From a virus: a stretch of 38,269 bases of DNA. The translations under genes were made by a program, and so were the position numbers. The stretch lies in the IMG/VR virus record IMGVR_UViG_3300029705_000074. One strand, 5' to 3'. Under the pieces are notes generated by a model that saw nothing but the letters and a program-made list of their open reading frames with translations, ran no database searches and was not told the origin of the DNA. Positions 48 through 34,597 of the stretch are shown here, one piece after another (the stretch's first letter is position 1; every line of letters starts with the position of its first letter).

Positions 48-149
48 GCGTAAATCGGTCAGCAAAACCAATACGGCAAAGTTTCACCGCGAGGGCAGTA
101 ATGATTAAAATAGCTTATTAAAAAATCAGTTAGAATAGGAGATAATATC

Positions 150-644: not shown

Positions 645-688
645 ATATTGTTTCCTGGGTTAAATTCTGAATTCTTTCGACGCGTTCC

Positions 689-785: not shown

Positions 786-1156
786 ATTAGATGGAGCATC
801 ACGTCACGAGCTAAGTGCCGAAGGCACGCAAGCGAGTGACACCTAGGATTCCCCAGAATACATTACTCCCATCTAATTGTGGCTTTACTATCAGCCACAA
901 CTTCGCTCCTTGGCGTAATGCTGAGGTTCTAGAGTTTTGTTTTTTGAAGATGTATATTTAGAATTGTAATGTGTTATAGGTAGATCTGCCTTCTCATCTA
1001 AGGAGAATTTATCCCTCTCATGTGTAAGTAGGCATGGGTAAAATTTAAGATTGTAGATGCAGAACTCGAGAAGTAACTGCTATTACTGCATGATAAGGAG
1101 AGAGTGTTATTCAAGACCAAAATAATACTTTCGAGCGTTTTTGTAGTTTTGACGCT

Positions 1157-6399: not shown

Positions 6400-6411
6400 G
6401 ATCTACCCTCC

Positions 6412-7227: not shown

Positions 7228-7240
7228 CGCCTTTTCCTCC

Positions 7241-9175: not shown

Positions 9176-9193
9176 TACATTCTTTCTCCTTTC

Positions 9194-11800: not shown

Positions 11801-12018
11801 GGCATCACTAGCATTCTTGTAAATAATACCATCTGGATATATAGCAGTTTTAACAATGCTCGAATTAGATAGCTAATCCACCACTCTAATCTGCACATGC
11901 CCGATACTATTTCTACCAGTCATACTTTGTAGAGTGTAAAAAACAGAATAGTTCTTGCTACTAGCCAAGAAAGCTGGCTATGTACTCGCCAAAGTAGGCG
12001 GATAAATACTAATTGGCA
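11797..12018 (-). CDS. small hypothetical protein, 73 aa, 1 in-frame TAG
   Basis: ATG 12016-12018 with AAGGAGG 9 nt upstream. Ends at TGA 11797-11799, overlapping the start of the next gene. Confidence 0.35.
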
Positions 12019-12115
12019 TATATCTTGCGCCTCCTTTTTCTCAATGTTCCTACTAAACCTAAAAATTCAATAAGACAAATAAATTGCTTTCGCCCATAAA
12101 TAGAGAAAGCGAGGG

Positions 12116-12529
12116 TTAATTACCCTCGCCATCCTCCACCATAAAGTATAGAACATTCATTACACTTAATGGAATATCATATCCCGTCAACTTATCAAGA
12201 GCAAAAGTAACGAGAGGCATACTCGTAGTTACCGCCAGCAAGTCTTCCAATTCTTGATTAACGGCTTGTTGCTTCTCCTTGGGAATGTCATAATATGCAG
12301 TGCCATTCTCGTCATCCATGGCAGCTGTACCATATCGCTCAAGAATATTCAAACGTTCTTTATAAATATCCTCAGCAATAGGTTGAAGTGTCTTGAAGTT
12401 TCGCACAACTGCAAAAGATACAACCGCGGGAAGGGGCATTGAATCTTGCATAAGCGTGCTTAAACCCTCGATATTTTCTAGAACTTTCTTGTTTGTTAGT
12501 TTCATAGAATTAACTCCTTTTTCTCTCAT
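12116..12529 (-). CDS. hypothetical protein, 137 aa (chaperone-sized, acidic C-terminus)
   Basis: ATG 12527-12529 overlaps the TGA of the upstream gene (ATGA). An alternative internal ATG 12505 has AAAAGGAG upstream. TAA stop at 12116. Confidence 0.55.
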   Translation of the reverse strand: MREKGVNSMKLTNKKVLENIEGLSTLMQDSMPLPAVVSFAVVRNFKTLQPIAEDIYKERLNILERYGTAAMDDENGTAYYDIPKEKQQAVNQELEDLLAVTTSMPLVTFALDKLTGYDIPLSVMNVLYFMVEDGEGN

Positions 12530-13278
12530 GGCGAAACTGCGTCTGCCAACGCCTCAAATAAAGCTGCGCTAATCAAAGTGCTATTCGCTGTGACACTCGC
12601 AGTCCCGCAAACACTTGCCATACTATTATAAATAGCGGCAGTTATCCAATCACCTGGCGACACCTTAAGGTAGTTATAAGAACTATACTAACTTGATTGA
12701 TTGCGCCAGCTTTTATATTTACCAACCTAATCAGCAAGCCTATTCCAGTTAGCGGCTGTGGCATAGTCCGCTATATATTTACCAGGAGAACATCCAAAAG
12801 ACCAAGCGGTTGGTTGTGTATATACGGTTACACTATCGGAAGCGGAACCTAGATTTACTGTGGTTGTAGTCGTGGTTGGTCCAGTAGTCGTGGTGGTTTC
12901 TTTATCTTCATAAATTGGATTACCATTTTCATCCTTGCCAGTTTCTACTTTTTCAGTGGTAGTGCTCCAAGACTTCTTAGTCGTGGTTTTAGTACACTTT
13001 ACACTCAGTGTACCCCGAACGGTATTGCTGGTTCCCGCAGACAAGCCAGTAAAAGTATGAGTAGGTTCTTTGCTACTCGCAGAACCGCCATCGCTGAAGC
13101 TCCAGGTCCATATTGTATTACTGTATGAAATCGTGGTTTCAGAACCATTTTTGCTATCTCCGGTGGTTGTAGTACCAGCATCACTGGGATAAGGCCAGTC
13201 CCAAGCGCTACAACTAATTGTAGCGCTTGTCTGCTTGACACTTGAATAAGAAGGCTGATTTAATGATACAGAACCCAT
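12526..13278 (-). CDS. Ser/Thr-rich structural protein with a poly-Thr tract, 250 aa, 2 in-frame TAG (12727, 12688)
   Basis: ATG 13278 with AAGGAGGAG upstream. The track ORF ends at TAG 12727. The frame continues to TGA 12526-12528. Contains TTTTGPTTTTTTV low-complexity linker. Confidence 0.55.
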
Positions 13279-13290
13279 TTAATCTCCTCC

Positions 13291-16200
13291 TTAGGCAAAT
13301 TGAGCGTAGATACCGGTCTGACGCTCTTTTGGAATAGTGCAACGAAGATCTCCGTTTCCAGAACCAAGCGCCCATCCATCGCCTAAGACTATTGCTCCAA
13401 GTGCTTTTATAGCCACGTTTCGAGACGAGTCTATAATGATACTCTTCTTTCGATCGGTAGTTTGCAGTCCCAAGTTATTGGTTGTCTACTGACCATCAGA
13501 ACCGTTAATCATACCAACCGTACCGATAGAGTCGTTGGCTCTCACTGTTGCTCCAATAATATTCCCATTATCATCATATTGATAGGTGATGGTAGTAGTC
13601 TCAATCTCAAGCTCACTCATAGTAGCATGACCATTAGAATATAGTGAGATATAATCGGAGAACAGACCATTCGAAGTGATTGCCCAACCACCAATACTAC
13701 CGCTGTTACAGGTAAGTGTAGTAGCGTTGATTGTACCACTAATGCTAGCATTTGATGCTACAATTCTACCACTAGAGTATAGATAGGTATTGCCAGCATA
13801 CAGAGAAGAGCTAGTAATTGTCCAACCACCAATCTTACCGCTATCTGCTGTAACCTTACCATCAATGTCAGCGTTCTTACAATATAGCTTACCATCACTC
13901 TTAACGTAGAAGTAAGAAGAACCGCTAAATGTTGGTGTATTACCAGGAGTGCCGCTATCCGCGCCAGACCAGAAGGTAAACGCGCCAGCGCTTGCCATAC
14001 CAATCTTATTGGTAGCATTTGAGAAGGAGGTTTTCTTAAGTGTCCAACCACCAATATTACCTTCCTTGGCATACAAGGCGCCCTTCTTCGATACTGCAAA
14101 ATAGCTACTTGCCGCACTTGCGCTACTGGCATTACCAGCCCAAATGGCATAAGTCTCGTTGGGGTCGCTATTTAACTCTACTCTTGTTGAACCGCTACCG
14201 CTATACAAACGGTTTTTCTCGATAACCCAACCATCGGTACTACTCTTACTTGAGCAACCTATTCTACCCGTGGTAGCATAGATTGTACCCTCAATCTCTG
14301 CGTCAATGGCACTCATTACACCAGCATAGGTAACGGAGAACTTACCTCCACCCACCTTTATAGCATAAGTAGTTTTATTGGGGTTAAGGTCAGCAAGAGT
14401 AATAGTCATGCCGACTTCACTATCACCACCGCCACCGCCGCTCAATTGTGCGGAAGTGCCGTCGATAAGAATCTAACCGCCACCGCTCTTCGCACCGAAG
14501 AACGCCTTACCATCTTGCATCAATCCAAAGGTATTGACACCAGCTTGGTAGCCGTAAAGACCAATCTTATCTTGTCCACTATCCTTGCCCATGACAACAC
14601 CAGTGAAACGATTAGCGCTATCCTTCGCACCCGCACCAACTTGTGGAGCGAAGATATAGTTCTCATTCTCATCAAGCTTTAATGCCGTACCATCCCATCC
14701 ATTGATTGCCTCATTACCGTAGGTATCGAGATACATAACAATAGGATGAATGAGCTTGGCATCAGAGTTTGGAATATTGAAAGATAGCACACCAATATTA
14801 CTCTCGCTGTTTTCTTTCACATTTTCGAAAATAAAGGTTGGTGCAGCTTCCAAATATTTCTTGCTATCTCGCTCAACAATAGTCAAAAGATTGGTGTTGA
14901 GTGATTGAATGTTGTTATTGTACGCTACATCTTTATAGTAGAAGTTAATATCATTGCTGTAATAAGAGGGCGTGAGGCCAGAAGAAGTGTACTTGATATA
15001 AGAAGGCACATCATCTATGTTAATGTCGGAAGCAACCGCATCTCCGACTATCACATCAATAGGATAAGAAGCATAGGTCACAATCTTGTCATCATTGGCA
15101 TCGGTGACAGTAACCTGCACCTTAACATAGAAAGCTAATTCTTTGCTTGTGGTATCCGCGGAAATGGTAGGTATACCGCGCGCTACAACTTGATTAGAAG
15201 TAGTGTCCAGTAAGAGTTTATTCTCCACTGTAACATTACTGCTTTCCCACTTATACTTAAAATTATAGCGGTCATCAAGTTCACCGTTAATCAGCTCACC
15301 ATCTTTATAGACATAACAATGCAATCGTAAATAATTTTTCCAGCCTGTGTTATAGCGCAGAGGGTTAAGGCCACTTAGTTTGTTACCATCGGAATCGCAT
15401 GGACGAATCGTGGTGATATAAGTAGTACCGTTAGTGCCCTGGTCGCCATCTTTCAAGAAAAGAATTTCTTTATTATAAGAATATTCATCTCCAGTAATAG
15501 TGGTAATACGCATTATAACACTATTGTTATTGTAATTAACTTTATACTTCTATTTAATATTATAGTGTAAACATTCTTGTGTGTCAACCCAAAGGCCGGC
15601 CATCATGGAATTATCAGGATTATGAGCTTGATCTTTTGTTTTTGGCAACTCGACTTCGTTTCTATCCTCATCAAGCACCCACCATGTAACCTTAAAAGCA
15701 GATGCGTAGCCATTCTTCCACTCTACTTTAGCCTACAAGGTTCGCTCTTTTTCAGAGTCCTCGATGGTAATATCGCCATTAGCATCATATCTAAAGGTGT
15801 CTTCGCCGACATATGTTACGGTTAAGTCCTCCGCGTTTTCACTGCTCGTGATGGTATGTTCGATAGTACCTAAATAGTCACCCGCTTGATTATAAACCTC
15901 GCAGTAAAACACCACAGAACTATAAATCAAATAGTCACCTACAAGAATAGCGTTCTAATTTTTTCCTTGCTGCACAGAGCTGTAACTACCGTCAGGATAA
16001 GACAAATACCAATTTCCTACCAAGGACTCATCGGTATTTCTTTCTTTAAGCTACAGCTTAATGTCCGCACCCTCAGTAATCTGGGCAATATAATAATCAT
16101 ACTTGCTATTGAGATTTTTGACCTCGATCTCTGCGGTAAGAGTTGTTTCTTCGTTATAGACAACAATCAACTTATATCGCTGTGAGTGGGTGTGTGCGTA

Positions 16201-17319
16201 ATCAGAAGAAGATAGATTTAAGGTGCTATCAGTTGCTCCATCAATAGGCTACCAACCGAAACCTGCGGCCTTACTATATTCCTCGCTGCCAACCATCACG
16301 CTCAAATCTCTCTCATACCATTGGCAAGTCACTTTACCTTTGTTGATAATATCCTCACCCTTGTAAATCAATCGACCTACCAGAGAAAGCTTATCAACCT
16401 TGTTTGTAAACGCCATACCCCTGGGCGCCGCAATCGTCAAGTAATATGTCACATCGCTAAGGTCTAATTTGTCCACATATTGAAGAACGATGTCCTTTAC
16501 AAAGATGTTAGCTACATCTGTAATCTCTTTATCTGGAGTTCCATTGTAACCAATAATCTTATCATAGACGAAGTTTTCTTGAAACAACTTAATAGATTTA
16601 AGTCCTACTAAATAGTTCTTTTGCGCTTTAATCACGATTTCTTGCGGTGTGTAGACAGAGAAACCGTACGGGTTACCATTAAAGTTAGAGCATTGTAACT
16701 TGTAAGATACGCTACTATCATCATTGGTATAAAACTCCACCTCGATACCATAGTTACCTTTAATATGCGTGCTGTGGAACTGCGTTAAGAACGATGCCTT
16801 AAGACGAATATACTCGTACTGAGAAGAATACTGATGAAACATTCCATGGTAACCATCGGGCTGATACGTATCATTGTTCTTGAAAATAGACACCCAACCC
16901 TTGTTCTCCAGATCGGAAGGCGCGCCCGCAATCACACCATAAGAACTTAATCTATCATAAGCGCCACCATAAAGCTCGTCAAAGTAAGGTGAAATCTCGA
17001 TGATAGAGTTAGATAACTGCATTAGCTGAGCTTCATTAAGCGAGGTTGAAGTCACTCTAGAGGTAATAATCTTCTTGTTCGACATATCACCCTCTGGAAT
17101 CTTCACATAGACAGCCTCGCCTACTTTATATGTCTAGGAAGTATCTTCCGCATAAGCCAAAACATGAGCGCCATTCAGGGTGACTCGATATTCTCCAGTA
17201 TCAATATTCTCAATACTATATATCTTGCCTTGCTTGGTTTTGTCATATTCAAGCTTTGAAATCTTTTCATCTACAACAATCTCTACCGCTTGTAGGACTT
17301 GTTCAGATATATTGTTCAT
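13291..17319 (-). CDS. tail fibre/tail spike protein, 1342 aa, 8 in-frame TAG
   Basis: Track ORFs 17134-17319, 16249-17106, 15733-15930, 14473-15513, 13486-14445 and 13291-13473 are all one frame. Every separator is TAG. Gaps were hand-translated with no TAA/TGA. ATG 17319 has a GGAGA SD. TAA at 13291 lies inside the SD of the next gene. The C-terminal region has 4 repeats of xGGWxI...LYS motifs. Confidence 0.7.
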
Positions 17320-17370
17320 GTCTTGTCTCCTTTCTCTCCTTGAAGGAGGAGGAAGGGGTTATCCCCTTCC

Positions 17371-20300
17371 TCATTCGCGTCTCCTTCTAATGTATTGGGA
17401 AGCATCATTACTAAGGTTGCTAAGAGCTTCCGCAATCTCGTTACGGTCAGTTGCATTGGGGAAGACCGCTTCGATGTGTACCTCTTGTTGCAGGGTATCA
17501 CCAATAGGTTGAATACTACCGGCACCGCCGATACGCTCTTTCATAAGTCCCATACCTGCGGCCACAGAGCTATCGAGCGCTCTTTCGATTGCTGCAAAGA
17601 ATTCTGGACCTAGCATACGCACCGCATTAACGGCCGCAAGAATATTATTAGTATCCTCTTGGTTGAGCACAAGCTCCTTCTCGTGGAGGAAAGCAAGTCT
17701 TGCACTATCGAACTCTCCGGTATAACCACCAGTGGCGAAGCCGGCCTCACGTACTAGTCGATCAACCGTATCTTTCCACGCGGTACCGTTGTGATGATAA
17801 TTCCAGTTATCTTGTGCCAAAGCATCATTCAAAATGCCTTGTGCGACGGAATACATACCAGGATACATACTCTCAACCTGCTGTCTACGCACAGGGTTAT
17901 TGTCATAAAGGCCAAGACCCATATCGTAAACCAGCTAAGACATCTGAGTAGCGCTCATGGCACCACCAGTACCAACACCCGTAGGCTCAGTTTGAGGGGT
18001 ATCCGGCGTATCTGGGGTTGTAATCTCTGGTACTTCCGGTGTGTTATCTTCAACATAAGATTGCTCTACCTGTGCGGCCTGTTCCGCAGCAAGCTGTGCC
18101 ATTGCCTGCGCAACAGCAAGATACTGCTCTGCCAGTAGGCTCAATTCCGCAGACAATGCAGCTGCCGCATCAACCTGACCCCACAAAGCCACAGCAGCTT
18201 CCTCGCCACGACTACGCAATTCGTCAGTGGCATCAGAAACTATGTCTGTTTCATCAGCAAGATCGCCCAGAGTGGTACCAGTTTCTCTTGCTACATCTTC
18301 AACCTTATCTTGATAGCTCTGGAAATTACCCTCACATTGCTCTAACAGGCCTCTTAAATCTGTCTCAAAGGTTTCGGTGTTTCCAGTCATGAGTTCTAGG
18401 TCTTCAGCATACTTATTTTCGAATAGATCAATCAGTTCTGTATTGCTTGCTACAATATCCTTAATTGCCTCGTTATTGCCGGATAAAATATCAATAATGC
18501 TTCCGCCACTATCTTCCACAATTTGCTGAATTTCCTCAGATGTTAAACCTGTCAAATCTGTGATAGTATCGCCCATTAAGATGGCGTTGGTGAGCAGAGA
18601 CTCATTGCCAGCTTCTGTCATATCAGACACCGCGACCTGCTTTTCTTCCTCAAGAGATTTAATCTTGTCGGTATAATAAGCATAAATCTCGGCAGCCCTA
18701 TCGGCACGCTCTTGGTCTGTTAGCGTCATATCATTATAGATTTCAGCAACAGCATCAGAACATTCTTGCCACAGGCCAACAATCTCACCAGTAACATTGG
18801 TCACTTGCTCTTTGGCAATATTATACCACTCGTTCTGAGCAGTAATTAGATCTTGCTCTGCCTATTCTACCTAGCCCGGGTCAGCGGTATACTGGTAATT
18901 CCAGTTACCTTGACGGTCACGAACAAGTTGGAGATTATTCTTGGCATTTTGAGCATCTTCAAGAGCGATTTGCGCTTGCATAACCTGGTACTTAGCTTCA
19001 AGAATCTCAAGGTCATACTTGGATAACTTGCCACCCTCACGACGCAAATCAATCTCTTCTTGTAGAGTCTTAAGGCGCTCTCTGGTAGAAGCGCTTGTCG
19101 CTTCGTCGATATCTTTCTGAAGCTTATTATACCAAGAGGTAACCTAATAAGCTTCATTTACCTTATCGAGATAACGCTGCTCTGCTTCGATATAATGGTC
19201 ATATTTATCTTGCAATAAATCAAGACCTAAGCCATTAGAAGCCGCCTGTCCAAACTCATACACGGCACGTTCAATCTGTTCAAGATACATCTCTTGTGCA
19301 GTCTCCATCGCTTCTTGAGCAAGAGAAAGATAGGCTTCTTGAGCCTCGTTGAATTCCTCAAGATATGCGTCACGAGCCTTTAACAAACGATCATGCTCAT
19401 TTGTTCCCTCTTGACCACCTGCGGCGAGATAGGCATCTAGTTCTGCCTGAGCTTGCGCTAGGCGCTGTCTGGCTTCATCTGCCCATTTCTTATTCAAGAC
19501 TGCATTTGCGGTCTGGGCTTCTAGTCGCTCCCCAAGGTTACGCTATAAAGTTGCAAAACCGCTAGCAGTTTTATTCGTCACACCTTGCAATGCATAAAGT
19601 TCCTTAATGGTCTCTAGCACAGAGGTATTGTGATCAAGCTAATCAGTAAACTTGGCAAACCGATCGGCGGCCGCATTTACGGCCTCTGGAATAATTTCCT
19701 CGATGGTATCAGCCCACTCGACAATGGCTGCGGCAGAATCAAGAATCTGGCCCTGGAGCTCTTGAATGTCTTCCATAACAGCCTCTTCGTCTGCGTATGG
19801 GTCAGACAACATTTCTTGCAGGCCCTGCCACTTCTCGACATAATCGCCAAACATATTGGCTTCTCGACCGGCCAAATCGGCACTCAGTTTCTCATACATC
19901 TTAAAGTGGGACAGATAGTCACCCTATGTTTCATAAAACTCTTTCCAGAATTCGTCAATGGAATCCTTCATGCTCTTTACATCAAGCACAATTTCGAGTT
20001 TATAGTCGATTTCTTGCAGCTTAAGATCAGACAGCTCTCTTAAACCATCAAGAAGAATTTGTTGCTGCTCGTTAACAATATCCAATGTATCTTCATATTG
20101 AGATACAAAGTCCTGCCATTGAGTCCAACGCTCTTCTGCCGCTTCGAAAACTGCTTGCTGAGCTTCAAGCTCATCTGCGGCCGCCTCTTGCTTAGTGGCA
20201 CTCATTGCATTATATGTCTCAATATAGGCATTATATGCATTTAGGCTAGCTTCATAATAAGCAAGTTCATTGGCCTACAATCTATCAAAGTTGGCAATCT

Positions 20301-23300
20301 CGCCATCCTCATCAAAGATAGCTACATCATTACCACCAGCGCTTAAGAAATCCTAAAGAGCTTTTTGGTCTTCCTTTAGCCATTCATTGGCTTCTTCTAG
20401 CTTGATATTTTGATTTGCAAGCTAGGTGTTTAGCTCTTGCTCACGCTTAGTAAATAGCACAAGTTTATTGGAACCATAGGCCCTATCGATCTATGTACCA
20501 ACTTCCTCGAGCTCTCGTTCCTGAGCCTCAATAACACGATTGATGCGATGGTAACGTTCTGGCTCTGCGTTACCTTCTTCTTTATCTATCTGCTTAGGCT
20601 TAGAAGAACCTCCACCACCGGGAGAGCCGCCACCCGCATTTTTCTTAGAGTAATTATTATAGTTACCAGTAGCCTTCTTGGTAATTCCATCAATAACAGG
20701 AGTTTTACCATTAGTGGTCATGGCAATAGCGTCTACATAACCCTCTGCTTCATAATATCCATCTTGATAAGTGCGAGTACGGGTACGAATAACCGTATTA
20801 CCATTATCATCCTCGTATGTACCGGCATCAATAGTTTCAGTTACATACTCAGGAACTCTCTGCTTTGTGAGCACAGGCTCTGTTTTGAAATTCGCCTCAA
20901 AGCCCATTGCATCAAACAAAGCATTGACTTGGTCAACGGTCATTCCAGCATCTGCTATCAACTGTTGAGCCTTGGTGAGGAATTCTCCATCATCTAGAGA
21001 AACACCAACATCGATATCTGGAATTAAGGCCACAAGATTTTGATAATCTGCTAAGATTGTAGCCGTTTCATCTTCGCTTAAGCCATTCTCAACAACGATT
21101 CTAGCAATGATGTCATTGCCCAGCTTACTCTTTAAGTTATCAATTGCAGTTGCACTACCCGTAGCAGCTTGCTCAATAAGATCAAGATTCTGACTAATAA
21201 AATCATTAGACACGTAATCTTCACTAACATCAAGCAAGTTAGCAACAGCAGTACGGCAATCTTGCATCGCTTCCGCAAATTCTTCACTATCTTCAGACGA
21301 GTTCTGAATAATATCAGACCAGTCTTCGAAGTTGTTGGACAAGTCCTCAATGGCATCATTCATTTTCATGATACCCTTGGCCACGATGCGAGCTTCGTTA
21401 TCGCTCATTTCATCGTTAAGACCTTCCATTTCATCAGCAGAAGTTCTTAGATAGTCCGCAAAATCTTCCCATTCTTCTGGGTCAAGCATCTCAGTATCAG
21501 ATGCTCTATCAAGATTAACAGCAGCCTATGTATAAGCCTCAGTAGAGATGATACCATCATCAAGAGCTTGCTTCAAATCGTCTAGGTTATCATAAGAACT
21601 TGCAATAGCAAGATTCCATGCTCGAGCTTCTGCCTCATTCGCAGCGATAGTGTCACTCAGTCCATTAAAGGCTCCGCTACATTCGCCAACCATTTGGGCA
21701 ATTTCATCAAGACCATCGTCGAAAGAGCCAGCCGCCAAATCTTGATACCACTCATCCAACTTCATCTTGGTTTCATCTGTCTGGTCTCCCAGTAAACGAA
21801 TTATATCAAGCTGTTGTTGAACAGTGGTGTGGTCATACTTCCAATCACCATTTTCATCTTGGTAATTAGCTTGCTTAGTTAGATTATTGAAATCATAACC
21901 TTGCAGATTACGATACTCCTGGTTTCGAGCTTCCAGGGTATTCATACTTTTAGTGGCTTCATCCAACAAGGCTTGCTGAGTAGCTTCCTTAAACTCGGCC
22001 GCGTTAGCGGTAAGTTTATAGGTGCCATCAAGCATCATGGTGAAGTATTGCTTAGCGCCTTCTCCAAGAGTATCATAATCCTCTTTAGAAATTGTATCAC
22101 CAGTGGCAATACCATCCATTACCTCGCGAATAGCCGCATACTTAGTTTGGAAACTCTCTAAACTACTTACTACTTCCTTAATGCCTTCTGCAAATTCCTC
22201 TAAAGAGCCTGCTTCATGGGCAGCGATAGCTTCATCAAGCTTGCCATAGGCAGAAGCAAGAGCAAAGATATCCGCAACATCTTGCATTTCAGAAAGTGTA
22301 AGATTACTTAAATCAGCATCCTCAAGAGCCTGCTATACAGAACGGGCATACTCTTTTCCGACATTATCCATGTCATCTCGAGTATTCTCAGCAGCATTGA
22401 CAACACCATCAACAAACTCGTTAACAAGTTCTTCTCCAACCTCATCAATACCAATACCTTCTTGAGCAGCAATAATAGCCTTAATTGCTTCTTCTCCACC
22501 GAACTGACTAATCACTTCATCAGCAGTGTCATAATCAGCAAGAGCATCTCTTAGGGAATTACTAAAATCACCCTGGGCAATATAATTGAGTGCGCCTTCA
22601 TCAAGGTCTTGCAATTGTGTCTTGGCACCCTGTGCGCTATCACCAATTTCGTCAAGGGCTTGAGCTGCTGCAATCATGGCAGCAATTTGCTCAGCATTAT
22701 ATACAACTTCTTGTCCTTGAGAATTTAGGAACACAAGACTGCGGTTATTATCGGTACCACGAACTGCATTATCAGTTTGAGCACTGACGTCGTAGCCGGC
22801 ATCCCGCAAAGCGCGTAAGGTCTCTTGATAAATGGAATTTCCAGAACTAGAGGCTTTGTTGATACCGCTACCAGTAAGCTTATCTTCCCATTCATCTGTC
22901 AATTCTTGAGTAAGCGCATCAATTTGACCAGTAACCATGGTTTGAACAGCTCTATCAAGAGTGGTTTGAGCCACGCCAAGAACCTGTTCAACTTGCATCT
23001 GAGTGATAAGATTAAACTTCTCACCCGCGGCGACCGCGCTATCGGCCATGCCCTGAATAGCAGTATACCATGTATCGATGGTATCTTCGGAATCAGAAAT
23101 TGAGAATCCAAGCTTTCTTAGAGCAGGCACCAACTCTTGTTTGGATAGCTTAGCCAACTCTTCATAATTAGCAAGGAGTATATCTCTATCGCCACTGTCG
23201 CTTGTTTCATCTCGATAGCTATATGCCTTACGGCCTAAGGCCATTGCATCAGCACGAAGCTGCATATCTGCGGCATACTTTTCTGCGGCAGATGCTGCAT

Positions 23301-26300
23301 AAGTGAGATTTTCAGCACGTTGATCGGCGCGATCTTGCAAACCGGTAAGAGCGTCTCTATTTAGAGTACCATCACTATTGCGCAGATTTGCTAGATCTTC
23401 AGCACTTAGCTTACCAGCATTATTGAGAACCTCAATGGCTGCTTCATTAACCTCTTTAAGGGCATCACGCCACTCTTGAGTACCTTCAGTACATTCTTCT
23501 AGTTTCTCTACCGCACTATCATAAGCATCAATAGAAGAACGGAGTTCATCAGCTGCCCGCTTTGCTTCATCTGCGGCCTCCGCGGTTTCACGCGCTGCTT
23601 CAGCTGCCTTTTTAGCCGCATCGGCATCGGCATTATAGGCCTTAACCGCTGCATAAATCGCAGCTGTCAATGCGGCTATGACTGCAACGGCCGCGAGAAG
23701 AATAAGATTATTGGCATATTTAGCTGCCGTATTAGCAATGGTTTTAGCGGTGTCATCAGAAGTCGCTTTAGCAGATAGTTTCTTTGCTATTGCACTTGCC
23801 AATGTAGCAGATACTGTCTTTGTTTCAACCAATGCTGCTTGGCCACCTAAAACCACGCTTATCTGTCGTTCTTTATTGAGTGCTCCAAAAGCCATGCTAA
23901 GAGTGGGTAATAGCATACTTAAGCTAGTAAGAATAGTTACGAAACGCTCGGTATTAGACATATCTTCATCGCTAAATACTCGTCCAAGACTCTAAAGAGC
24001 GTTAATTCCCATGGTTACTTGTGACAAGACACTACCAGCATTTACCAATGTTTCTGCCCAATCCTTAGCTTTTAGAGAGCCATTACTCATGGCGTTTTGA
24101 GCTTCCTACATTTTTCCTTCCATCTGTGTAAGAGCATCATTAAAGGCTTGTTCAGATACTGCTCCGGCTCTGAATTGTGCTACCAAACGTGTTAAGTCGT
24201 TCTAAAAACGTACATTGTCCTCACCCAAAGCCAAAATCACCTGGCGAAGTCGGTTAACTCGCTCTGTAGACGACTGAAGCTCTGTGTTGAACTTGCCGTT
24301 GGCAGACAAATATCTTTCCACCTAATCATCAGGCATGTTCTGGGCTACTAAGCCAAGAGAGCGTGCTAACTCGATACTTTCTTGAGATATTCCGCTTGTA
24401 CTCTAACTTAAAGATCTTTGTAGCTGGCGATATTTTTCTGATTGAATTGCAGCCTCTTTTAATCTTGCGATAAGTGCTACTAAAGCTCGTTCATTAGAAG
24501 TAACACTAGAATCGTTAAGAACGGCATTTATATCTTTTTTAATAACGCCCATGCCTTGCTGCACTCTATTCGTAAGATTACCAGAGGCATCGCGCTGGAA
24601 TGTAGCTCCTCTAATTTGGTTCCGCCAGTTTTGTTGAGACTCTTGGTTCATATGCTCTGTCAGTCTTTCGGTCAGTATTTCTGCCTACTGTCGAGCCTGA
24701 TTTGTTTGTTGTGCCATTGTGTTCAAGATGTCTTGACGCACCGCAGCTTCTTGCACCAAAGAGCGCAATTTCTCTGCTTGGTAACTACTCAGCTCTAATT
24801 CATAGGCGTTCGCCTGTCCTTGCAACTCGACTAACTTGGCCTCTTGAGATATTCTTTGATTGTCTATGCTATTATCGGAGTTCTGCAAGCTAATCAATCT
24901 AGCCATGTCGGCAGCTTCTTGTCTTAATGCTTGCGCTCTCTCCCATTCCTTCTGCTGCATTAAACCAAGGTTGGTAGCCATAGCACGCATACCGCTGGCC
25001 ATTTGGTCTCCATATACTCGATTCATTAGCAACGCTAATCCCGCCAGCACACCCTGCATTCCACCCAAGGAGTCAATTACATCGGCTGTACCACTTAGAA
25101 TTGGAGTAACTGCATCATCAACACTAATAAAGAAGTCAGGATTGATTAAACTGTCATAAATGTCTTCAGTCGCTGCTCTAACTCTATCACGAGCGCCTTC
25201 CCAAGACTCTGCATAAACATCGGCTTGTTCATTTAGTGCACCAGTAGCACTTGTTGCAGTAGCTAGATTATCTTGGAAATCATCCCAGTTCTCCATTAGG
25301 TTAATAAATTGAGTATACTGACGTACACCAGCCACGGTTTGAGCGAGTGCCATTTGCTATGCCTTAGTTAAAGTGCTCCATCTCTCAGCGGTATCATCCA
25401 AGATGTTATCCATCTGTTTAAGATTACCATTAGCATCAAGAATCTATACTCCAACCTTAGCAAGGGCTTGAGAATATTTATTTAGGTCTACTCCATCTTC
25501 TAAGGTTTCACCTAAAGACAAACCTTGGAAACGAGTAAATAAAGTACGAAGAGCAGTACCCACAATACTTGCACTTTCGCGAGTATTAGCAGTAAGTGTT
25601 GCAAGAGCGGAAGCGGCATATTCGTAACTTAAACCTACCGTTCCAGCTACGGCGGCAAATTTCTGCAAGCCAGTTGCAATTTCATCAGAACTGGATGCAG
25701 TAGCAGCACCAAGAGCTACCATTACATCGGCGTAATATTCAAGAGATTTTCCGCCCTCTTCATAGAAGTTATTCCATACGGCGGTAAGCTGTTCAGAGAC
25801 CTCTTCTGCAGCCTGTCTTGAAACATTGGCCATCTTAATAGTGGTTTCAGTTCTACCTTTAACCTGTTCATCATCAAGGCCTTGCTGATAGTAAATTAAA
25901 GATGCATCAGTATAGTCAGTAGTAGTAGTGCTTAAAGCCTTCGCGGCCTCATTTGCGTATGCCGCAAACTCTTTCATTTCATCAGTGGACTTAAGGGTAA
26001 CAATACGAATATTGTTGAGCGATGTGTCAAGACTCTTGGCATAACCATATGCAGTTTCAAGCTATCCCACAAAACCGTGCAAAACACTAGAAGTTAATTG
26101 CCAACGCATAGTATTCTTCATGGTTATCCATAATTCATCCATTAACTTACTGGTTCTGCGTAGAGGGGTCTCAGCTTTCATTATAGCACTAGCTACACTA
26201 AGGAAAGCCTCTTGACCACTTGGTCCCAATGCCTCTAGAGTACGATAATATTCTGTCAAAGTGCGATTACTATTTTTTAAGTTATCATTGAATTTCGTTA

Positions 26301-26505
26301 AGTCAATAGAATCTCCTTTAACATTCATGGCGCTTTCCAAGTTGCGCTTCAATTCCAGCGCCGCTGTTGAAGCTTGCTATAAACTTGGTACCATGGAAGA
26401 TTGTGTACTAAGATTGCTCAAAGAGCTTAGCGCTTCTTTGATAGCAGCCTAAAATTGGTTAGTATCGGCTGTAATACCAATCTGGTAATTCAATCTTTTA
26501 GCCAT
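17371..26505 (-). CDS. tape measure protein, about 3044 aa, about 24 in-frame TAG
   Basis: Thirteen track ORFs (17371-27147 region) share one frame. All internal separators are TAG, and all gaps were hand-checked free of TAA/TGA. Ala/Glu/Gln/Leu-rich coiled-coil composition. Hydrophobic segment (SLSMLLPTLSMAFGAL). ATG 26503-26505 preceded by AAGGAGGAAAAGGAC. TGA stop 17371. Sits between a chaperone-like gene and the fibre gene. Confidence 0.75.
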
Positions 26506-26607
26506 GTCCTTTTCCTCCTTTGTCACATATGCAAATAAGGCTCTTGAGAATTAAATCCCAAGAGCCTTTTCAATTCTCTACTTAATCTGACTTTTCTATT
26601 AAATAGA

Positions 26608-27141
26608 TTAACCTTTTCCAACCACATCTTTGATGACAGATAGCTGCTCAAGACCTTCACCATTCTTGATTTGTTCCAAGATGGTGGTAATCTGTTCATC
26701 AAGACCGGTAGCACTATTGCTCATGCTCTGAATAATACCGGCCGCAGAAGTGTTGTATCTTGCAATGTCTGCAACAGTCTCTTCCACCAAGTTCTTAATG
26801 AAGACCAGTTCGCCTTCAGGAATAGCATCCAGAATATCCTCGATTAGACCATTGGTATCAAGAGCATCATACACTTGAGCCACATTCACCATATCCTCTT
26901 CGGTAAAAGAAATGCCCGCATACCATCTACATACTGCGATGGCAAAATAAACCTCTACACGCAGAGGACTAAAGGTACCAGTAACCTCATCGAGAGCACC
27001 ATTTACCACAAACTGAAGCAACTTAGTCTTGTCATCAATAGGCAAATAACTTTGCACTTCAATAGCAGTATCTCCACAATAAATGCACTGGGTCTCGATG
27101 CAGGGTTGAATATTCAATTGATTAAAAGCAATCTCTTTCAT
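26608..27141 (-). CDS. tail assembly chaperone-like protein, 177 aa
   Basis: Position immediately upstream of the tape measure gene. ATG 27139-27141 with AAGGAG upstream. TAA stop 26608. Confidence 0.4.
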   Translation of the reverse strand: MKEIAFNQLNIQPCIETQCIYCGDTAIEVQSYLPIDDKTKLLQFVVNGALDEVTGTFSPLRVEVYFAIAVCRWYAGISFTEEDMVNVAQVYDALDTNGLIEDILDAIPEGELVFIKNLVEETVADIARYNTSAAGIIQSMSNSATGLDEQITTILEQIKNGEGLEQLSVIKDVVGKG

Positions 27142-27192: not shown

Positions 27193-28656
27193 TTATGTCA
27201 AGCCTAGCATATTCATGTTAAGGCTGGCAGAAATCGTCAGCCCGTTAATTATACCCTAAACTGTACGACTACGAGTTTCTGCATCATCCCAGTTATTGCT
27301 TTTACCTACCCACTGGTTTGTCTTTGATGTGATACCACCAAAAGACAAAGAAACTGGGGAAGCAACATCACTTACCTTGCCATAAGGAATCTATCCAGCT
27401 ATCTTCTTAATTATGCTAGTAATGGTATATAGCTTACCATTTACCATTAAAAACTGCGCTTTATCTACCTCACCGGTAGACATTAATCCACCAGAACCGC
27501 TAATCCATTCATTGAGAAAAGTTGCGGAAATGGTAGACTTAAGTTTCTAGTAACCATCAGGATCACCCCATTGGTGTCCAATAATGTTATATGCAATACC
27601 ACGAGGAGCAAGCGCAAATTCTCCTAAAATTTCTCCCATATTCATGGAACCAAGCGACACATGAGGTACAATACCTTTAGTATTAGTTTTATACCATTTA
27701 ACCGACACATTGGTGGCTATCTCTATATTAGTAGTCTAGCCATTGATTGAAACGGTTAAAGATAATGCCTTGCTATTAAGCAAGTCAACCTTAGCGGTCT
27801 TACCCTTGGTCTTCTGAGCACCAGACTTCTTAAATGAGCTGCTAACAAGCTTAATGTTACCATTCTTTCCAAGAACCTAATCGCTTATTTTAAGTATCTC
27901 ATCATCCAAGTTTGGCATGGCAGATTCTAGCATTTGCTTGCCAATCTGCTCTCCTAGCGCGCCAGAAAAGATATTGGTCATAGTGGAACGCAAGCTATCA
28001 GAAGCAAGAGTCCCTTGAGTGCCAAGTTTGTCTGCTGCATTATTGAGCCAAGTTAATATGTTATCAATCACTTGCAGTTGTTCTTTTGTAACTGGTGTTG
28101 CTGTTTGATAGCCTTGGCTTGAATAACTAAAACTCTTAGGCCCCATCTTTTTACCAATCTTGGTTAATTGTGTAAAAACGTGTTTTGGAACCGCTCCACC
28201 AGTCATAGACTAAATACCCTTTACCACAAGATCAAAAAATTCTTGAACTTGTTTAGCTTTTACACGACCATTCTCAAATAATCCATCAAGAGAGTGTGAA
28301 GATTGGAGAACCCGCGCGAAACTAGCTGGGTCGCTCGATGACCATGCTGACTGAATGCCACTATCCAGGGCTCCCGCAATTCCCTCTAAAAGTTCTTCCA
28401 ATAACTTGCCATCTTCAAGCGCTTCCGCAATTTCAAGTGGGCCTGCGGCCTTCTGACCTTTTGTTTCCATGGCCTTGACTATTGCTTGCACTTGGCTAGA
28501 AAGCATATCCTCTTTCATATTGCTATTATTCTTCTGCCAGATTGGCGATAAATATTCATCAGTCCTACCTGGCACGATAAGGTTGTAATGGTCTAAGTGG
28601 TAAAGAATATACTCTTCACGCAATACTCTATGTACGCTTTCAGTAATGTTTGCCAT
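27193..28656 (-). CDS. tail protein, 487 aa, 6 in-frame TAG (28210, 27877, 27736, 27547, 27391, 27256)
   Basis: Track ORFs 28210-28656 and 27877-28206 are co-frame. The frame stays open a further ~230 codons through TAGs to TAA 27193-27195. ATG 28656 has AAGGAGG upstream. Confidence 0.55.
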
Positions 28657-28794: not shown

Positions 28795-29727
28795 TTATTC
28801 CCCCGCCTCTTCTACCACACAAGCAGCGCGAGAATCCTCGACTTCATCACTTTCATCAGTGATAATTTGGATAGCAGCCAGGACCTTCTTAGTCTTGTCG
28901 AACTTGGTATAGTCGGGGAATGCATCCATTACGAAGGAGAAGGTGGAAGGATCGCCGCTAGCAGCCATAGCGAAGTTGAAGTTAGACTGAATCTTACCAT
29001 TAGGAATGATAAACTCAGCAGGCATATCAACACCGTCAGACTCACGACGGAACAAGGTAGAAGCCTCGAGATAGTAGTTACCAGCGAACTTGTCGGCGGT
29101 AATCTCAATCATCTTAGCATTACCAATCTTCTTGACGTAGTAGTCAACAAGAACGACAGAGCCGACCTTTTCGGCTTCAACACAGGTGATGATAGTCTTG
29201 CCGTCTGCATACTCACCAGCAGCAGGAATGCAAGGTTCAACCTCAATTTCACCAGCGTCATCGAGCACCATGCAGAAGATGTCAGCGCTAGCATGAGCAT
29301 ACTTGGCAGCATCGGTACCAGTAGCCTTAGCAGCACCAGCCTCATCAGTGGTCCAGCAAGCGATTACAGGAAGTTCAATCTTGTTGGCTTCCTTAATCTC
29401 AACCTGGGAAGTGGTGTGAACATAGATTGGAGCGGCTTCGGTTGCCTCAACCAGGCCAGCACCAGAAAGGATTGCAAAGCTCTCAGGAGAGAGAAGTGCA
29501 TCTTCCATATTGAAGGTTAGAGTACGCTCGCCTTCCCAAGCGATCAAACGAGCATTACCACGGCCACCAGTAGCATAAACAGTGGTAGCAGCGCCTTCAA
29601 GGCTGGAGGTCTTCAAGGTATCGAAGTACAGAACAGGTTCGTTCTTGTAGAAAGTGCGATTACCGAGTTGCATCTTTGCCTTAGCGCGAAGAACAACGTC
29701 GCAAATTTCACGAACACCAAATTTCAT
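28795..29727 (-). CDS. putative major tail (tube) protein, 310 aa
   Basis: Strong SD (AAGGAGGAAACACGAT-ATG). TAA stop followed by an intrinsic terminator. Located between the head-tail connector genes and the chaperone/tape-measure genes. Confidence 0.45.
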   Translation of the reverse strand: MKFGVREICDVVLRAKAKMQLGNRTFYKNEPVLYFDTLKTSSLEGAATTVYATGGRGNARLIAWEGERTLTFNMEDALLSPESFAILSGAGLVEATEAAPIYVHTTSQVEIKEANKIELPVIACWTTDEAGAAKATGTDAAKYAHASADIFCMVLDDAGEIEVEPCIPAAGEYADGKTIITCVEAEKVGSVVLVDYYVKKIGNAKMIEITADKFAGNYYLEASTLFRRESDGVDMPAEFIIPNGKIQSNFNFAMAASGDPSTFSFVMDAFPDYTKFDKTKKVLAAIQIITDESDEVEDSRAACVVEEAGE

Positions 29728-33550: not shown

Positions 33551-34597
33551 TTAGCCCTCTACTGGAGCGATGTTGTCCAGGTGACCCTGGAGCTCGGTGT
33601 CAACGTAACTGAAGATGTTGTTAGTCATCATCACACCAACGCCAACCTTACGGTAGACCTGGATGTCACGAGACCAGTCATCATTATCGTTACGCTCACG
33701 AATGTGAGTAGTGCCCTCGAAAGCAACCTTTACAGGCTTATCGTTGGCGCCAGCAGGAATAATCCAGCAGTAACCGGGGTCGATAACCTTGCGGCTGTTG
33801 GTTTCATCCTCAAGAGACTGAGGAAGAATAACAACGCGGGTGCCCTTGTAGTTAGCGAGGTAGCCCTGAGCCCAACGCTCGTCCTTCATGCGGTCAGAAA
33901 CCCAACCATCTTCAGGAACGATTTTCACAGCAAACTCACGAGTGCAGTAGATGGTAGGAGTACCATAAGCACTTGCAGTGTTTACGAGATAGTCAAGAGC
34001 AGCCTCGTCGAAACCAGCCCAAGATACCTTGTTAGCAGCGGGAAGCTGAGTTACAGCAGCCTGGAGAGCAGCCTGGATCTCACGATAAATGAGTTCCTGC
34101 ATACCTTCCATGACGATCTGGGTCAGCTCAGCGAAGTTTACACGACCATCAAGATACTCCTCGAAGCCGATGCGAGCGGCTCCGCCGATAGCACTGGTCT
34201 GTACTTCGAAGCTCTCAGAACCGAGCTTGAAGGTCTCATAGACACCTGCAAGACCAACGCGAGTAATGAACTGCTTGGCACGAGCATGGCCGGTTCTACG
34301 AGTGTAAACAGGGCGGTCACCCTGACCAAAGGTCTTAATCTCAGCGAAGGAACCATACACGTTCAGTAGGCGAGTAGGAACCAAATCATCCATAGTCTCT
34401 GCCATCAGAGCGAAGACCATGCGCTTATTCTGTTCGTAAAGTTCATCGGTAGCAGTCAGCTCTCTCAGCTCATTCTGCAGGGTTGCGTCCATAGCAGCAT
34501 AGGTGAGATTCTCTCCATTGAAGGAATAGTTTCCAGAAGGAGTGCCGTTAGCCACGTTCTTCATGAGTTGAAGCAAATTAGCTCTATCTAATGCCAT
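33551..34597 (-). CDS. putative major capsid protein, 348 aa
   Basis: Uninterrupted ORF. Strong SD (AAGGAAGGAGAG). Followed by a stem-loop. Located after the portal, protease/scaffold and head-protein genes. Size is typical of HK97-fold capsid proteins. Confidence 0.5.
   Translation of the reverse strand: MALDRANLLQLMKNVANGTPSGNYSFNGENLTYAAMDATLQNELRELTATDELYEQNKRMVFALMAETMDDLVPTRLLNVYGSFAEIKTFGQGDRPVYTRRTGHARAKQFITRVGLAGVYETFKLGSESFEVQTSAIGGAARIGFEEYLDGRVNFAELTQIVMEGMQELIYREIQAALQAAVTQLPAANKVSWAGFDEAALDYLVNTASAYGTPTIYCTREFAVKIVPEDGWVSDRMKDERWAQGYLANYKGTRVVILPQSLEDETNSRKVIDPGYCWIIPAGANDKPVKVAFEGTTHIRERNDNDDWSRDIQVYRKVGVGVMMTNNIFSYVDTELQGHLDNIAPVEG

What the first reader, a model, noticed from the sequence alone, without database searches (positions are those of the whole stretch)
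17371..26505. Giant tape measure protein (~3044 aa) hidden as 13 ORF fragments
All 13 track ORFs between 17371 and 26352 are in one frame. Every separator is TAG, and every gap was hand-translated without TAA/TGA. Composition is coiled-coil (A/E/Q/L-rich) with a membrane-like segment. It sits between a chaperone-like gene and the fibre gene. If tail length scales at ~0.15 nm per residue, the tail would be roughly 450 nm, which is exceptionally long. TAG density (~1 per 125 codons) is highest here and in the tail genes.
Basis: partly seen in the sequence, partly recalled or inferred. Interest (0 to 1): 0.6.

Follow-up and report, generated by a model that had tools for sequence, protein, structure and literature searches.

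The report
Recoded giant phage tape measure gene
This is one intact 3,044-residue tail tape measure gene of a gut phage that reads the TAG stop codon as glutamine; the reading is correct, but such genes are already published for related phages and this one is average-sized for its family.

Summary
On the minus strand, 26505->17371 is one 3,044-codon frame with 24 in-frame TAGs and no TAA or TGA before the terminal TGA; the other two frames carry 107 and 342 TAA/TGA. It has a strong ribosome-binding site. Its N-terminal core clears the curated tape-measure cut-offs (PF10145 100 bits, TIGR01760 109 bits). TAG means glutamine: no gene in the window ends in TAG, and relatives' TAGs align to window Gln 37% of the time against a 6.8% background. 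The gene lies in an SPbeta-type siphovirus tail module. Calibration on SPbeta and Tsamsa predicts a tail of about 430-460 nm.

It is not novel or exceptional. Babkin et al. 2023 (phAss-1) already described TAG-shredded tape measure proteins of 3,149-3,209 aa in related gut phages. Public assemblies already hold this protein, a 98% identical variant, called as 3,044 aa. Of the 150 best family representatives, 121 are at least 2,500 aa (median 2,921, maximum 3,411). Tsamsa (3,123 aa, 440 nm) and P23-45 (5,002 aa, 800 nm) equal or exceed it.

Two small corrections: only 12 of the 13 ORFs are in frame, and the gene's TAG density is not the highest. No suppressor tRNA was found in any reachable sequence.

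The parts
17371..26505 (-). Tail tape measure protein CDS: 3,044 aa plus TGA stop, with 24 in-frame TAG codons read as Gln
   Evidence: A 98.3% identical 3,044-aa product is already in public assemblies.
26514..26521 (-). Shine-Dalgarno AAAGGAGG, 8 nt upstream of the ATG at 26505
   Evidence: read directly from the sequence.
25045..26070 (-). Conserved TP901-type tape-measure core (aa 146-487; PF10145 covers aa 185-393)
   Evidence: TIGR01760 109.4 bits against a cut-off of 28.8. PF10145 100.3 bits against 33.2, covering profile positions 1-201 of 201. 53-71% identity to 5 non-redundant relatives.
23878..23943 (-). Hydrophobic, TM-like segment aa 855-876
   Evidence: Kyte-Doolittle 19-residue mean of 1.7.
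23650..23706 (-). Hydrophobic, TM-like segment aa 934-952 (LILLAAVAVIAALTAAIYA)
   Evidence: Kyte-Doolittle 19-residue mean of 2.6.
20551..20847 (-). Non-helical interruption (aa ~1887-1985): a small beta-meander followed by a Gly-rich disordered linker (GGGSPGGGGSS)
   Evidence: AF2 model m03e9f8926f9b, low confidence. G+P content of 14% in this window.
18556..19608 (-). Second conserved block (aa ~2300-2650) containing the motif ...LVRDRQGNWNYQYTADPG...; predicted helical
   Evidence: Up to 62% identity to relatives, against 11-29% in the middle of the protein. Conserved in the family consensus. Also the second tblastn piece shared with the Enterococcus phages and Phass-1. AF2 shows long helices for aa 2549-2820.
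17374..17808 (-). Conserved C-terminal region (aa ~2900-3044) with the motif GGYTGEF..ARLAFLHEKELVLNQEDTNNIL
   Evidence: About 44% identity to relatives. Family consensus TGGYTG.W....GKLA.LH.KELVLN..DT.N.L. Also matched in SPbetaL6/L7.
26608..27141 (-). 177-aa gene directly upstream (phrog_30570, function unknown). It sits where a tail-assembly chaperone would be. No TAG.
   Evidence: conserved and syntenic in relatives. No slippery heptamer or frameshift extension found.
27193..28656 (-). 487-aa gene of unknown function between the tube gene and the 177-aa gene; 6 TAGs
   Evidence: 29-31% identity to syntenic genes of L003, L004 and L008.
28795..29727 (-). Tail tube protein (SPbeta YomU type); no TAG
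   Evidence: Precomputed PF27173 YomU_Tube on the identical 310-aa product. phrog_2729 at 3.6e-58. TAG-free in all relatives.
13291..17319 (-). Probably a tail-tip or baseplate component; function not assignable. 8 TAGs.
   Evidence: No PHROG or Pfam hit. Syntenic and 44-50% identical in L003, L004, L008 and L010.
33551..34597 (-). Major capsid protein (SPbeta YonB type), used to place the phage; no TAG
   Evidence: PF27364 YonB. tblastn: 52% to phAss-1, 36% to Enterococcus EF1/VRE9, 22-27% to SPbeta-like and phiCD211 phages.

Best explanation
The region is a single gene for the tail tape measure protein (TMP) of a large (~136-149 kb) SPbeta-lineage siphovirus from gut-type metagenomes that decodes TAG as glutamine (genetic code 15). 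Shown: the frame is open except for TAG. The N-terminal ~500 residues are a bona fide TP901-type TMP core. The gene sits downstream of the YomU-type tube gene and upstream of tail-tip genes. TAG behaves as a Gln codon and is never used as a terminator in the window. Inferred: a phage-encoded suppressor tRNA-Gln(CUA), as in phAss-1 but not located for this genome, reads the 24 TAGs late in infection. The first TAGs, at codons 19 and 43, would then prevent any TMP from being made until suppression is active. The mostly alpha-helical, acidic, 3,044-residue chain threads the tube and sets tail length at about 0.14-0.15 nm per residue, giving roughly 430-460 nm. The hydrophobic segments and the conserved C-terminal region would act at the tail tip and membrane during DNA ejection, as in other siphophage TMPs.
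For: Open frame with 24 TAGs and no TAA/TGA. Strong ribosome-binding site and conserved N-terminus. PF10145 and TIGR01760 above curated cut-offs, plus eight PHROG TMP families. Recoding is window-wide: reading TAG as sense turns the minus strand into a packed gene array, and all 22 genes end in TAA (16) or TGA (6). TAG = Gln: the window has Gln at 305 of 814 positions opposite relatives' TAGs (37% against a 6.8% background), and the TAG-free relative L010 shows the same pattern. Total Gln including TAG is 6.8-7.9% in recoded TMPs against 6.4-7.4% in standard-code ones. Intact standard-code homologues exist: VRE9_2 TMP at 2,673 aa and SPbeta YomI at 2,285 aa. The synteny tube - 487 aa - 177 aa - TMP - 1,342 aa is conserved. 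A code-aware public gene call gives the same 3,044-aa product with Q at all 24 TAG sites. Published precedent: phAss-1 group TMPs of 3,149-3,209 aa broken by TAG, with three tRNA-Sup(CTA) genes (PMC10607447). Ruler calibration: SPbeta 2,285 aa and 320 nm (PMC8270828); Tsamsa 3,123 aa and 440 nm (PMC3903500). AF2 on two TAG-free segments shows mainly long helices.
Against: No suppressor tRNA was found in the window, in ~7.7 kb beyond its left edge, in ~6 kb beyond its right edge, or in the flanks of relatives, so the decoder is inferred. Only about 500 of the 3,044 residues match any curated family. The AF2 models are low-confidence (pLDDT 55-57) and cover only 652 residues. No canonical frameshifted chaperone was found upstream. 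Tail length is not measurable here, and giant TMPs can contain non-ruler domains (P23-45 RNAP).
Confidence: 0.93

Rival explanations
1. Only part of the protein is a ruler. The giant TMP carries one or more embedded non-ruler modules (an enzyme, ejected cargo or a channel-forming domain), as in P23-45 where the N-terminal part is an RNA polymerase. Tail length would then be shorter than 0.14-0.15 nm times 3,044.
For: P23-45 precedent (10.1101/2022.12.01.518664). SPbeta YomI is annotated as carrying a transglycosylase. There is a second strongly conserved block at aa 2300-2650 and a conserved C-terminus. A non-helical beta-meander plus Gly-rich linker lies at aa ~1887-1985. Tsamsa TMP runs as 280 and 100 kDa bands, suggesting processing.
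Against: No Pfam, NCBIfam or PDB sequence match outside the core, even at E<=1. The conserved block and its surroundings are predicted as long helices. Composition is uniformly helix-favouring and acidic along the whole chain. The whole-length ratio of 0.14 nm/aa holds for both SPbeta and Tsamsa.
Confidence: 0.1
2. The TAGs are genuine stops. The region would be a decayed pseudogene or a string of separate small genes, not one protein.
For: Standard-code gene callers, including the deposited GenBank annotation of phAss-1, report only fragments. No suppressor tRNA was seen in the available sequence.
Against: There are zero TAA/TGA in 3,044 codons against 107 and 342 in the other frames. TAG never terminates any of the 22 genes. 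TAG aligns to Gln in relatives. The Gln budget balances only if TAG is counted as Gln. Length and end-to-end homology are conserved in more than 100 cluster representatives.
Confidence: 0.01
3. TAG is decoded, but not (only) as glutamine; for example as pyrrolysine, Trp or Tyr, or ambiguously.
For: One window TAG (aa 1391) sits opposite an invariant Trp in 8 relatives, and another (aa 2321, alignment column 2667) opposite Phe/Tyr. Some Firmicutes use TAG for Pyl (my own knowledge, not tested here).
Against: Gln is by far the commonest partner of TAG in both directions of comparison. Gln content is conserved only if TAG = Gln. phAss-1's tRNA-Sup(CTA) genes are typed as Gln. TGG->TAG and TAT->TAG are single-base changes, and both sites lie in the fast-evolving part of the protein.
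Confidence: 0.03
4. Recoding here is chiefly a timing switch rather than a neutral codon reassignment. Early in infection the host reads TAG as stop, so the TMP and other TAG-bearing tail genes are silent. They are made only once the phage suppressor tRNA accumulates. This complements the best explanation and does not exclude it.
For: This is the model of Borges et al. (10.1101/2021.08.26.457843). TAGs occur at TMP codons 19 and 43. The tube, capsid and 177-aa genes are TAG-free in the window and remain so even in relatives where TAG makes up 50-77% of Gln codons in neighbouring genes. That pattern shows gene-specific selection on TAG use.
Against: The TAG-free genes are themselves late structural genes, which fits avoidance of inefficient suppression in highly expressed genes as well as it fits timing. 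A close family member (L010) uses no TAG at all, so the switch is dispensable. There are no expression data.
Confidence: 0.35

Closest known systems
Tape measure proteins of phAss-1, ctckW2 and ct6IQ4 (proposed genus Phassvirus; NCBI 'Caudoviricetes code 15 clade'; Babkin et al. 2023, PMC10607447)
   Same: Human-gut phages of ~133-136 kb using TAG = Gln. Their TMP is shredded by TAG under the standard code and measures 3,149-3,209 aa when recoded. My own read-through of OQ749652 gives 3,155 codons with 110 TAGs. They share the capsid type (52% identity) and TMP homology over 64% of the length.
   Different: TMP identity is only ~26% and capsid identity 52%, so this is a different genus. The window uses TAG for 12% of Gln codons against 44% in phAss-1. 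GC in the TMP is higher (44% against 36%). The gene order of the capsid and TMP modules differs in the phAss-1 record.
IMG/VR relatives IMGVR_UViG_3300045988_* (L003-L011) and unnamed metagenome proteins P0002-P0150
   Same: Closest family: 53-65% identity in the core by tblastn and 30-42% over the whole protein. They share the architecture (core, variable middle, conserved block, C-terminal motif) and the synteny. Lengths run from 2,541 to 3,411 aa.
   Different: Most are heavily recoded, with 84-113 TAGs and 42-55% of Gln codons as TAG. One, L010, has none.
Enterococcus phages EF1, EF5, H1 and VRE9_1-4 TMP (phrog_34405)
   Same: Cultured phages of ~134-142 kb in the same broad group. The TMP is intact and annotated at 2,673 aa in VRE9_2. 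The neighbouring PHROG families are the same: 31155, 6123, 4051, 2729 and 30570.
   Different: They use the standard genetic code, have ~26% TMP identity and are 370 aa shorter. The order of the genes between tube and TMP differs slightly.
Bacillus phage SPbeta YomI
   Same: Same virion gene families (YonB capsid, YomU tube, YomW, YonD, YonG). It is a siphovirus with a long tail: 2,285-aa TMP and a 320 nm tail. The TMP core is homologous.
   Different: Standard code and 760 aa shorter. YomI is annotated with a transglycosylase function, which is not detectable in the window's protein.
Bacillus phage Tsamsa TMP (3,123 aa, 440 nm tail) and Thermus phage P23-45 TMP (5,002 aa, ~800 nm tail)
   Same: Giant TMPs of cultured siphoviruses that equal or exceed this one. 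They show that the length-to-tail relation extends into this size range.
   Different: No specific relationship was shown here. Both use the standard code. P23-45 fuses an RNA polymerase to the TMP, for which there is no sign here.

Membership tests
Tail tape measure protein, TP901 type (PF10145 / TIGR01760) | Core domain scores above the curated family cut-offs | tested here: met
   PF10145 100.3 bits (cut-off 33.2) with full profile coverage. TIGR01760 109.4 bits (cut-off 28.8). Eight PHROG TMP families, best at 1.9e-60.
Tail tape measure protein, TP901 type (PF10145 / TIGR01760) | Gene lies in the tail module, downstream of the tube gene and upstream of the tail-tip/baseplate genes | tested here: met
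   The YomU-type tube gene lies 2.3 kb upstream. Synteny is conserved with VRE9_2 and with L003, L004, L008 and L010.
Tail tape measure protein, TP901 type (PF10145 / TIGR01760) | Predominantly extended alpha-helical chain with hydrophobic segments | tested here: inconclusive
   Hydrophobic segments at aa 855-876 and 934-952, with helix-favouring composition throughout. AF2 on aa 1661-2004 and 2549-2856 gives mostly long helices, but at pLDDT 55-57 and over only 21% of the chain.
Tail tape measure protein, TP901 type (PF10145 / TIGR01760) | Preceded by tail-assembly chaperone gene(s) with a programmed frameshift (G/GT type) | tested here: not met
   The upstream 177-aa gene belongs to phrog_30570, of unknown function. 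No XXXYYYZ heptamer was found, and there is only a 65-codon alternative-frame opening across its 3' end. This feature is common but not universal among TMP loci, and its absence was also not examined in SPbeta.
Tail tape measure protein, TP901 type (PF10145 / TIGR01760) | Protein length determines tail length | not testable with these tools
   Needs EM of virions and deletion mutants. Calibration from SPbeta (0.140 nm/aa) and Tsamsa (0.141 nm/aa) predicts 426-429 nm.
Code 15 (TAG -> Gln) recoded phage | In-frame TAGs in essential, conserved genes | tested here: met
   71 in-frame TAGs in 14 of 22 minus-strand genes, including the portal, the TMP and tail genes.
Code 15 (TAG -> Gln) recoded phage | TAG not used as a terminator | tested here: met
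   Of the 22 genes, 16 stop at TAA, 6 at TGA and none at TAG. The plus-strand genes also end in TAA or TGA.
Code 15 (TAG -> Gln) recoded phage | TAG aligns with Gln codons in homologues | tested here: met
   305 of 814 positions (37%) against a 6.8% background.
Code 15 (TAG -> Gln) recoded phage | Phage-encoded suppressor tRNA with a CUA anticodon | tested here: inconclusive
   No tRNA in the window or in any reachable flank. Only about 52 kb of a ~136-149 kb genome could be read. phAss-1 has three such genes, and some recoded phages have none.
Proposed genus Phassvirus (phAss-1 group) | Close genome and protein similarity to phAss-1, ctckW2 and ct6IQ4 | tested here: not met
   No megablast match to any deposited phage. 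Capsid 52% and TMP ~26% identity. It belongs to the same wider SPbeta/EF1/phAss lineage but not to that genus.

The most novel reading that the evidence does not exclude
This phage is a lightly recoded intermediate in one TMP family that spans the whole range of TAG use: 0% of Gln codons in L010, 12% here, and 42-55% in seven recoded IMG/VR relatives (L003-L009, L011) and phAss-1. In every member the tube, capsid and 177-aa genes stay TAG-free. On this reading the family records the trajectory (gain or loss) of a stop-codon reassignment, and shows that TAG is kept out of the most abundantly made virion proteins and concentrated in low-copy tail proteins such as the TMP. That would make recoding a dosage or timing device rather than drift. 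A separate open point is that the family-wide conserved block (aa ~2300-2650, motif RD..GNW.Y.YTAD) may be a functional module of unknown role rather than mere ruler.
Probability: 0.3. Interest if true: 0.45.

Novelty: new member of a known kind. Interest (0 to 1): 0.2.

Why it matters
The main value is practical. The case shows again that standard-code gene calling shreds the largest structural genes of code-15 phages. Even the deposited GenBank record of phAss-1 still lists its TMP region as 17 'hypothetical proteins'. Simple frame and stop-codon statistics recover the true gene. Biologically it adds an undescribed, lightly recoded genus-level lineage to the SPbeta/EF1/phAss group of large gut siphoviruses with tails predicted at 400-480 nm. 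It also supplies a within-family gradient of TAG usage that could be used to study how stop-codon reassignment evolves. It does not change what is known about tape measure proteins.

Tried and rejected
- The search for homologous proteins with the full 3,044-aa query failed internally. I used tblastn, IMG/VR loci and the representative library instead.
- Megablast of 21 kb against deposited phages found nothing.
- An exact 49-mer from the window was not found in IMG/VR.
- A PDB sequence search with the whole protein found nothing at E<=0.1.
- Permissive Pfam scans of six non-core segments gave only sub-threshold noise.
- Pfam on nine neighbouring proteins found nothing in the local copy. The newer SPbeta-named families appeared only as precomputed hits.
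- No tandem DNA repeats and no internal protein repeats. Length was therefore not gained by recent duplication.
- No tRNA in the window or in any fetched locus.
- No slippery site or frameshift extension in the upstream 177-aa gene.
- The idea that the TMP is an unusual TAG hotspot was rejected on per-gene densities.
- A crAss-like virion RNA polymerase or other non-TMP giant protein was considered at the outset and rejected on the profile hits.
- Fold search was not run, because both AF2 models were too low in confidence to give meaningful matches.

Full report

Yes. Translating the minus strand from 26505 to 17371 gives 3,044 sense codons. They are interrupted by 24 TAGs and by no TAA or TGA until the TGA at 17373-17371. 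The other two frames of the same stretch contain 107 and 342 TAA+TGA. An ATG at 26505 lies 8 nt downstream of AAAGGAGG, and the N-terminus (MAKRLNYQIG...) is conserved in relatives.

Two details are off:
- Of the 13 standard-code ORFs of >=80 aa on this strand, 12 are in the tape measure protein (TMP) frame. 18867..19157 is an out-of-frame overlap.
- The TMP's TAG density (0.79 per 100 codons) is not the highest. Four neighbours exceed it, up to 1.95, and the window mean is 0.63. Tail genes as a group do carry more TAG than head genes.

**2. Is TAG really a sense codon, and which one?**

Recoding is window-wide. Reading TAG as sense turns the minus strand into a tightly packed array from 3483 to 38269. 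All 22 genes in that array end in TAA (16) or TGA (6), and none ends in TAG.

I fetched nine IMG/VR relatives, at 53-65% identity in the TMP core. Their TMP ORFs are 2,620-2,913 codons long. Eight carry 84-113 in-frame TAGs and one (L010) carries none.

In a MAFFT alignment, the window has Gln at 305 of 814 positions opposite relatives' TAGs. That is 37%, against a Gln background of 6.8%. TAG-free L010 shows the same preference.

Composition gives an independent check. Gln content counted as TAG+CAA+CAG is 6.8-7.9% in all recoded TMPs. The standard-code homologues L010, VRE9_2 and SPbeta YomI have 6.4-7.4%. So TAG = Gln, genetic code 15.

No tRNA was found in the window, in ~7.7 kb beyond its left edge (L018), in ~6 kb beyond its right edge (L012), or in the relatives' flanks. 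The decoder is therefore inferred from phAss-1, which has three tRNA-Sup(CTA) genes typed as Gln (PMC10607447).

**3. What is the protein?**

The core is a TP901-type tape measure domain:
- PF10145 matches aa 185-393 at 100.3 bits against a cut-off of 33.2, with full profile coverage.
- TIGR01760 matches aa 146-487 at 109.4 bits against 28.8.
- Eight PHROG tape-measure families match aa ~14-510, the best at 1.9e-60.

Nothing else in the chain matches Pfam, NCBIfam or PDB sequences, even at permissive thresholds.

The remaining anatomy:
- Hydrophobic segments at aa 855-876 and 934-952.
- A uniformly Ala/Leu/Glu/Asp/Gln-rich, net-acidic composition.
- No tandem or internal repeats.

Conservation against five non-redundant relatives is bimodal:
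- aa 100-500: 53-71%.
- aa 500-2000: 11-29%, with many indels.
- aa ~2300-2650: up to 62%, containing ...LVRDRQGNWNYQYTADPG...
- aa 2900-3044: about 44%, containing GGYTGEF..ARLAFLHEKELVLNQEDT.

The same pattern appears in a 31-sequence family alignment.

AF2 was limited to TAG-free segments and gave pLDDT of only 55-57:
- aa 1661-2004: helices, then a small beta-meander, then a disordered Gly-rich linker.
- aa 2549-2856: helices of 42-74 residues ending in a Pro/Thr-rich linker.

Nothing looks like an embedded enzyme.

**4. Context**

An exact-sequence lookup of the capsid protein found the same locus on ENA contig ERZ27248370:k141_2485273. Precomputed Pfam hits there name the neighbours after SPbeta virion proteins:
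- YonB (capsid, 33551-34597)
- YonD_N
- YonG_N
- YomW
- YomU_Tube (28795-29727)

The order tube - 487 aa - 177 aa (phrog_30570) - TMP - 1,342 aa is conserved in the closest relatives. It parallels Enterococcus phage VRE9_2.

The upstream 177-aa gene is 'chaperone-like' by position only. It has no known function, no slippery heptamer and no room for a G/GT-type extension. The downstream 1,342-aa protein has no family assignment, so calling it a fibre is unproven.

**5. Tail length**

Two cultured phages calibrate the ruler:
- SPbeta YomI is 2,285 aa for a 320 nm tail (PMC8270828), or 0.140 nm/aa.
- Tsamsa's TMP is 3,123 aa for a 440 nm tail (PMC3903500), or 0.141 nm/aa.

These give 426-429 nm for 3,044 aa. 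The estimate is sound but cannot be tested here.

**6. Comparison with what is known**

Babkin et al. 2023 (PMC10607447) describe gut phages phAss-1, ctckW2 and ct6IQ4. In them TAG->Gln recoding 'destroys' the TMP ORF, and the recoded TMPs are 3,149, 3,150 and 3,209 aa. NCBI files phAss-1 under 'Caudoviricetes code 15 clade'.

My own read-through of OQ749652 gives 3,155 codons with 110 TAGs. The deposited annotation still shows 17 fragments over that stretch.

The window is a more distant member of the same wider lineage: capsid 52% and TMP ~26% identity to phAss-1, and no DNA-level match to any deposited phage.

The exhaustive representative search shows a large family. It returned 1,361 proteins at E<=1e-30. 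Of the best 150 cluster representatives, 121 are >=2,500 aa, with median 2,921, interquartile range 2,814-3,078 and maximum 3,411. Thirty-six are as long as this one or longer.

The top hit, P0001, is a 98.3% identical 3,044-aa variant with Q at all 24 TAG sites. It is held unnamed in Logan and ENA assemblies on contigs up to 149 kb.

P23-45's TMP is 5,002 aa, with an ~800 nm tail. The protein is therefore neither hidden from code-aware pipelines, nor exceptional in its family, nor a record.

**7. What is mildly distinctive**

The window is lightly recoded. TAG supplies 12% of Gln codons in its TMP, against 42-55% in the other recoded relatives and 0% in L010, VRE9_2 and YomI.

Across the family the tube and 177-aa genes stay TAG-free. 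This holds even where neighbouring genes use TAG for 50-77% of Gln codons. In the window the capsid gene is TAG-free as well.

This fits either of two ideas: avoidance of suppression-dependent codons in the most abundantly made proteins, or the late-gene switch model of Borges et al.. I cannot separate them with these data.

**8. Verdict**

This is a new member of a known kind, of low interest as a discovery, but a correct and cleanly demonstrable annotation fix.

Noticed in passing
window 1-2320 (+ strand); complete cassette in L018 6100-10004: A diversity-generating retroelement (DGR). The 3' end of its variable repeat is cut by the window's left edge (1-30). It is followed by an Avd-like ORF (105/150-644), an AAC-rich template repeat (~690-785) and a 387-aa reverse transcriptase (1157-2320; phrog_1423 at 4e-59; RVT_1) that itself contains one in-frame TAG. 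Window 1-30 against 756-785 shows 4 mismatches, all at template adenines. In the 136-kb relative scaffold the 112-bp TR/VR pair has 19 mismatches, 18 of them at template adenines, and the target is a 543-aa Big_3/DUF6273 protein. No second VR lies in the window.
   Followed up: yes
window 26537-26568 (- strand): A perfect 13-bp hairpin (-21.6 kcal/mol, z = -4.6, none of 200 shuffles as stable) lies between the 177-aa gene and the TMP ribosome-binding site. It is followed by only a weak U-tract (UAUUUG), so the terminator scan did not call it. It may be an attenuator or an RNA-stability element.
   Followed up: partly
window 27201-27173 (- strand): A near-consensus sigma-70-like promoter (TTGACA, 17 nt, TATTAT, 11 of 12 matches, with an extended -10 TG) lies just upstream of the 177-aa gene. 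The overall count of promoter-like sites in the region is no higher than in shuffles.
   Followed up: no
window 22335-22333 (TMP codon 1391): This TAG sits opposite a Trp that is invariant in 8 relatives; TGG->TAG is a single transition. Another TAG (codon 2321; alignment column 2667) is opposite Phe/Tyr. These are probably ordinary substitutions to Gln in the fast-evolving part of the protein, but they are the only hints against a pure Gln reading.
   Followed up: partly
L010 (IMGVR_UViG_3300045988_147563) 7205-17782: This family member uses no TAG at all in the TMP, tube or downstream genes, so it appears to use the standard code, at 60% core identity to recoded relatives. Its TMP match begins only at aa 210, and about 2.2 kb separates the 177-aa homologue from the TMP ORF. 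That suggests an insertion or rearrangement at the TMP 5' end.
   Followed up: no
L003 6378-7793, L004 6364-7776: The tube proteins of the closest relatives carry a C-terminal extension of ~160 aa that is absent from the window's 310-aa tube protein. It may be an Ig-like decoration domain.
   Followed up: no
L001 (OQ749652.1 Phage Phass-1) 5246-14713: The deposited GenBank annotation still uses standard-code gene calls. The 3,155-codon TMP ORF is listed as 17 short 'hypothetical proteins', although the accompanying paper re-annotated the genome with table 15.
   Followed up: yes
window 2738-3436 (+ strand) and L018 4492-4944: Next to the reverse transcriptase is a gene with a precomputed PF06541 (ABC_trans_CmpB-like membrane protein) hit. 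A resolvase-family recombinase lies about 3 kb beyond the window's left edge in the relative scaffold. Their roles were not examined.
   Followed up: no
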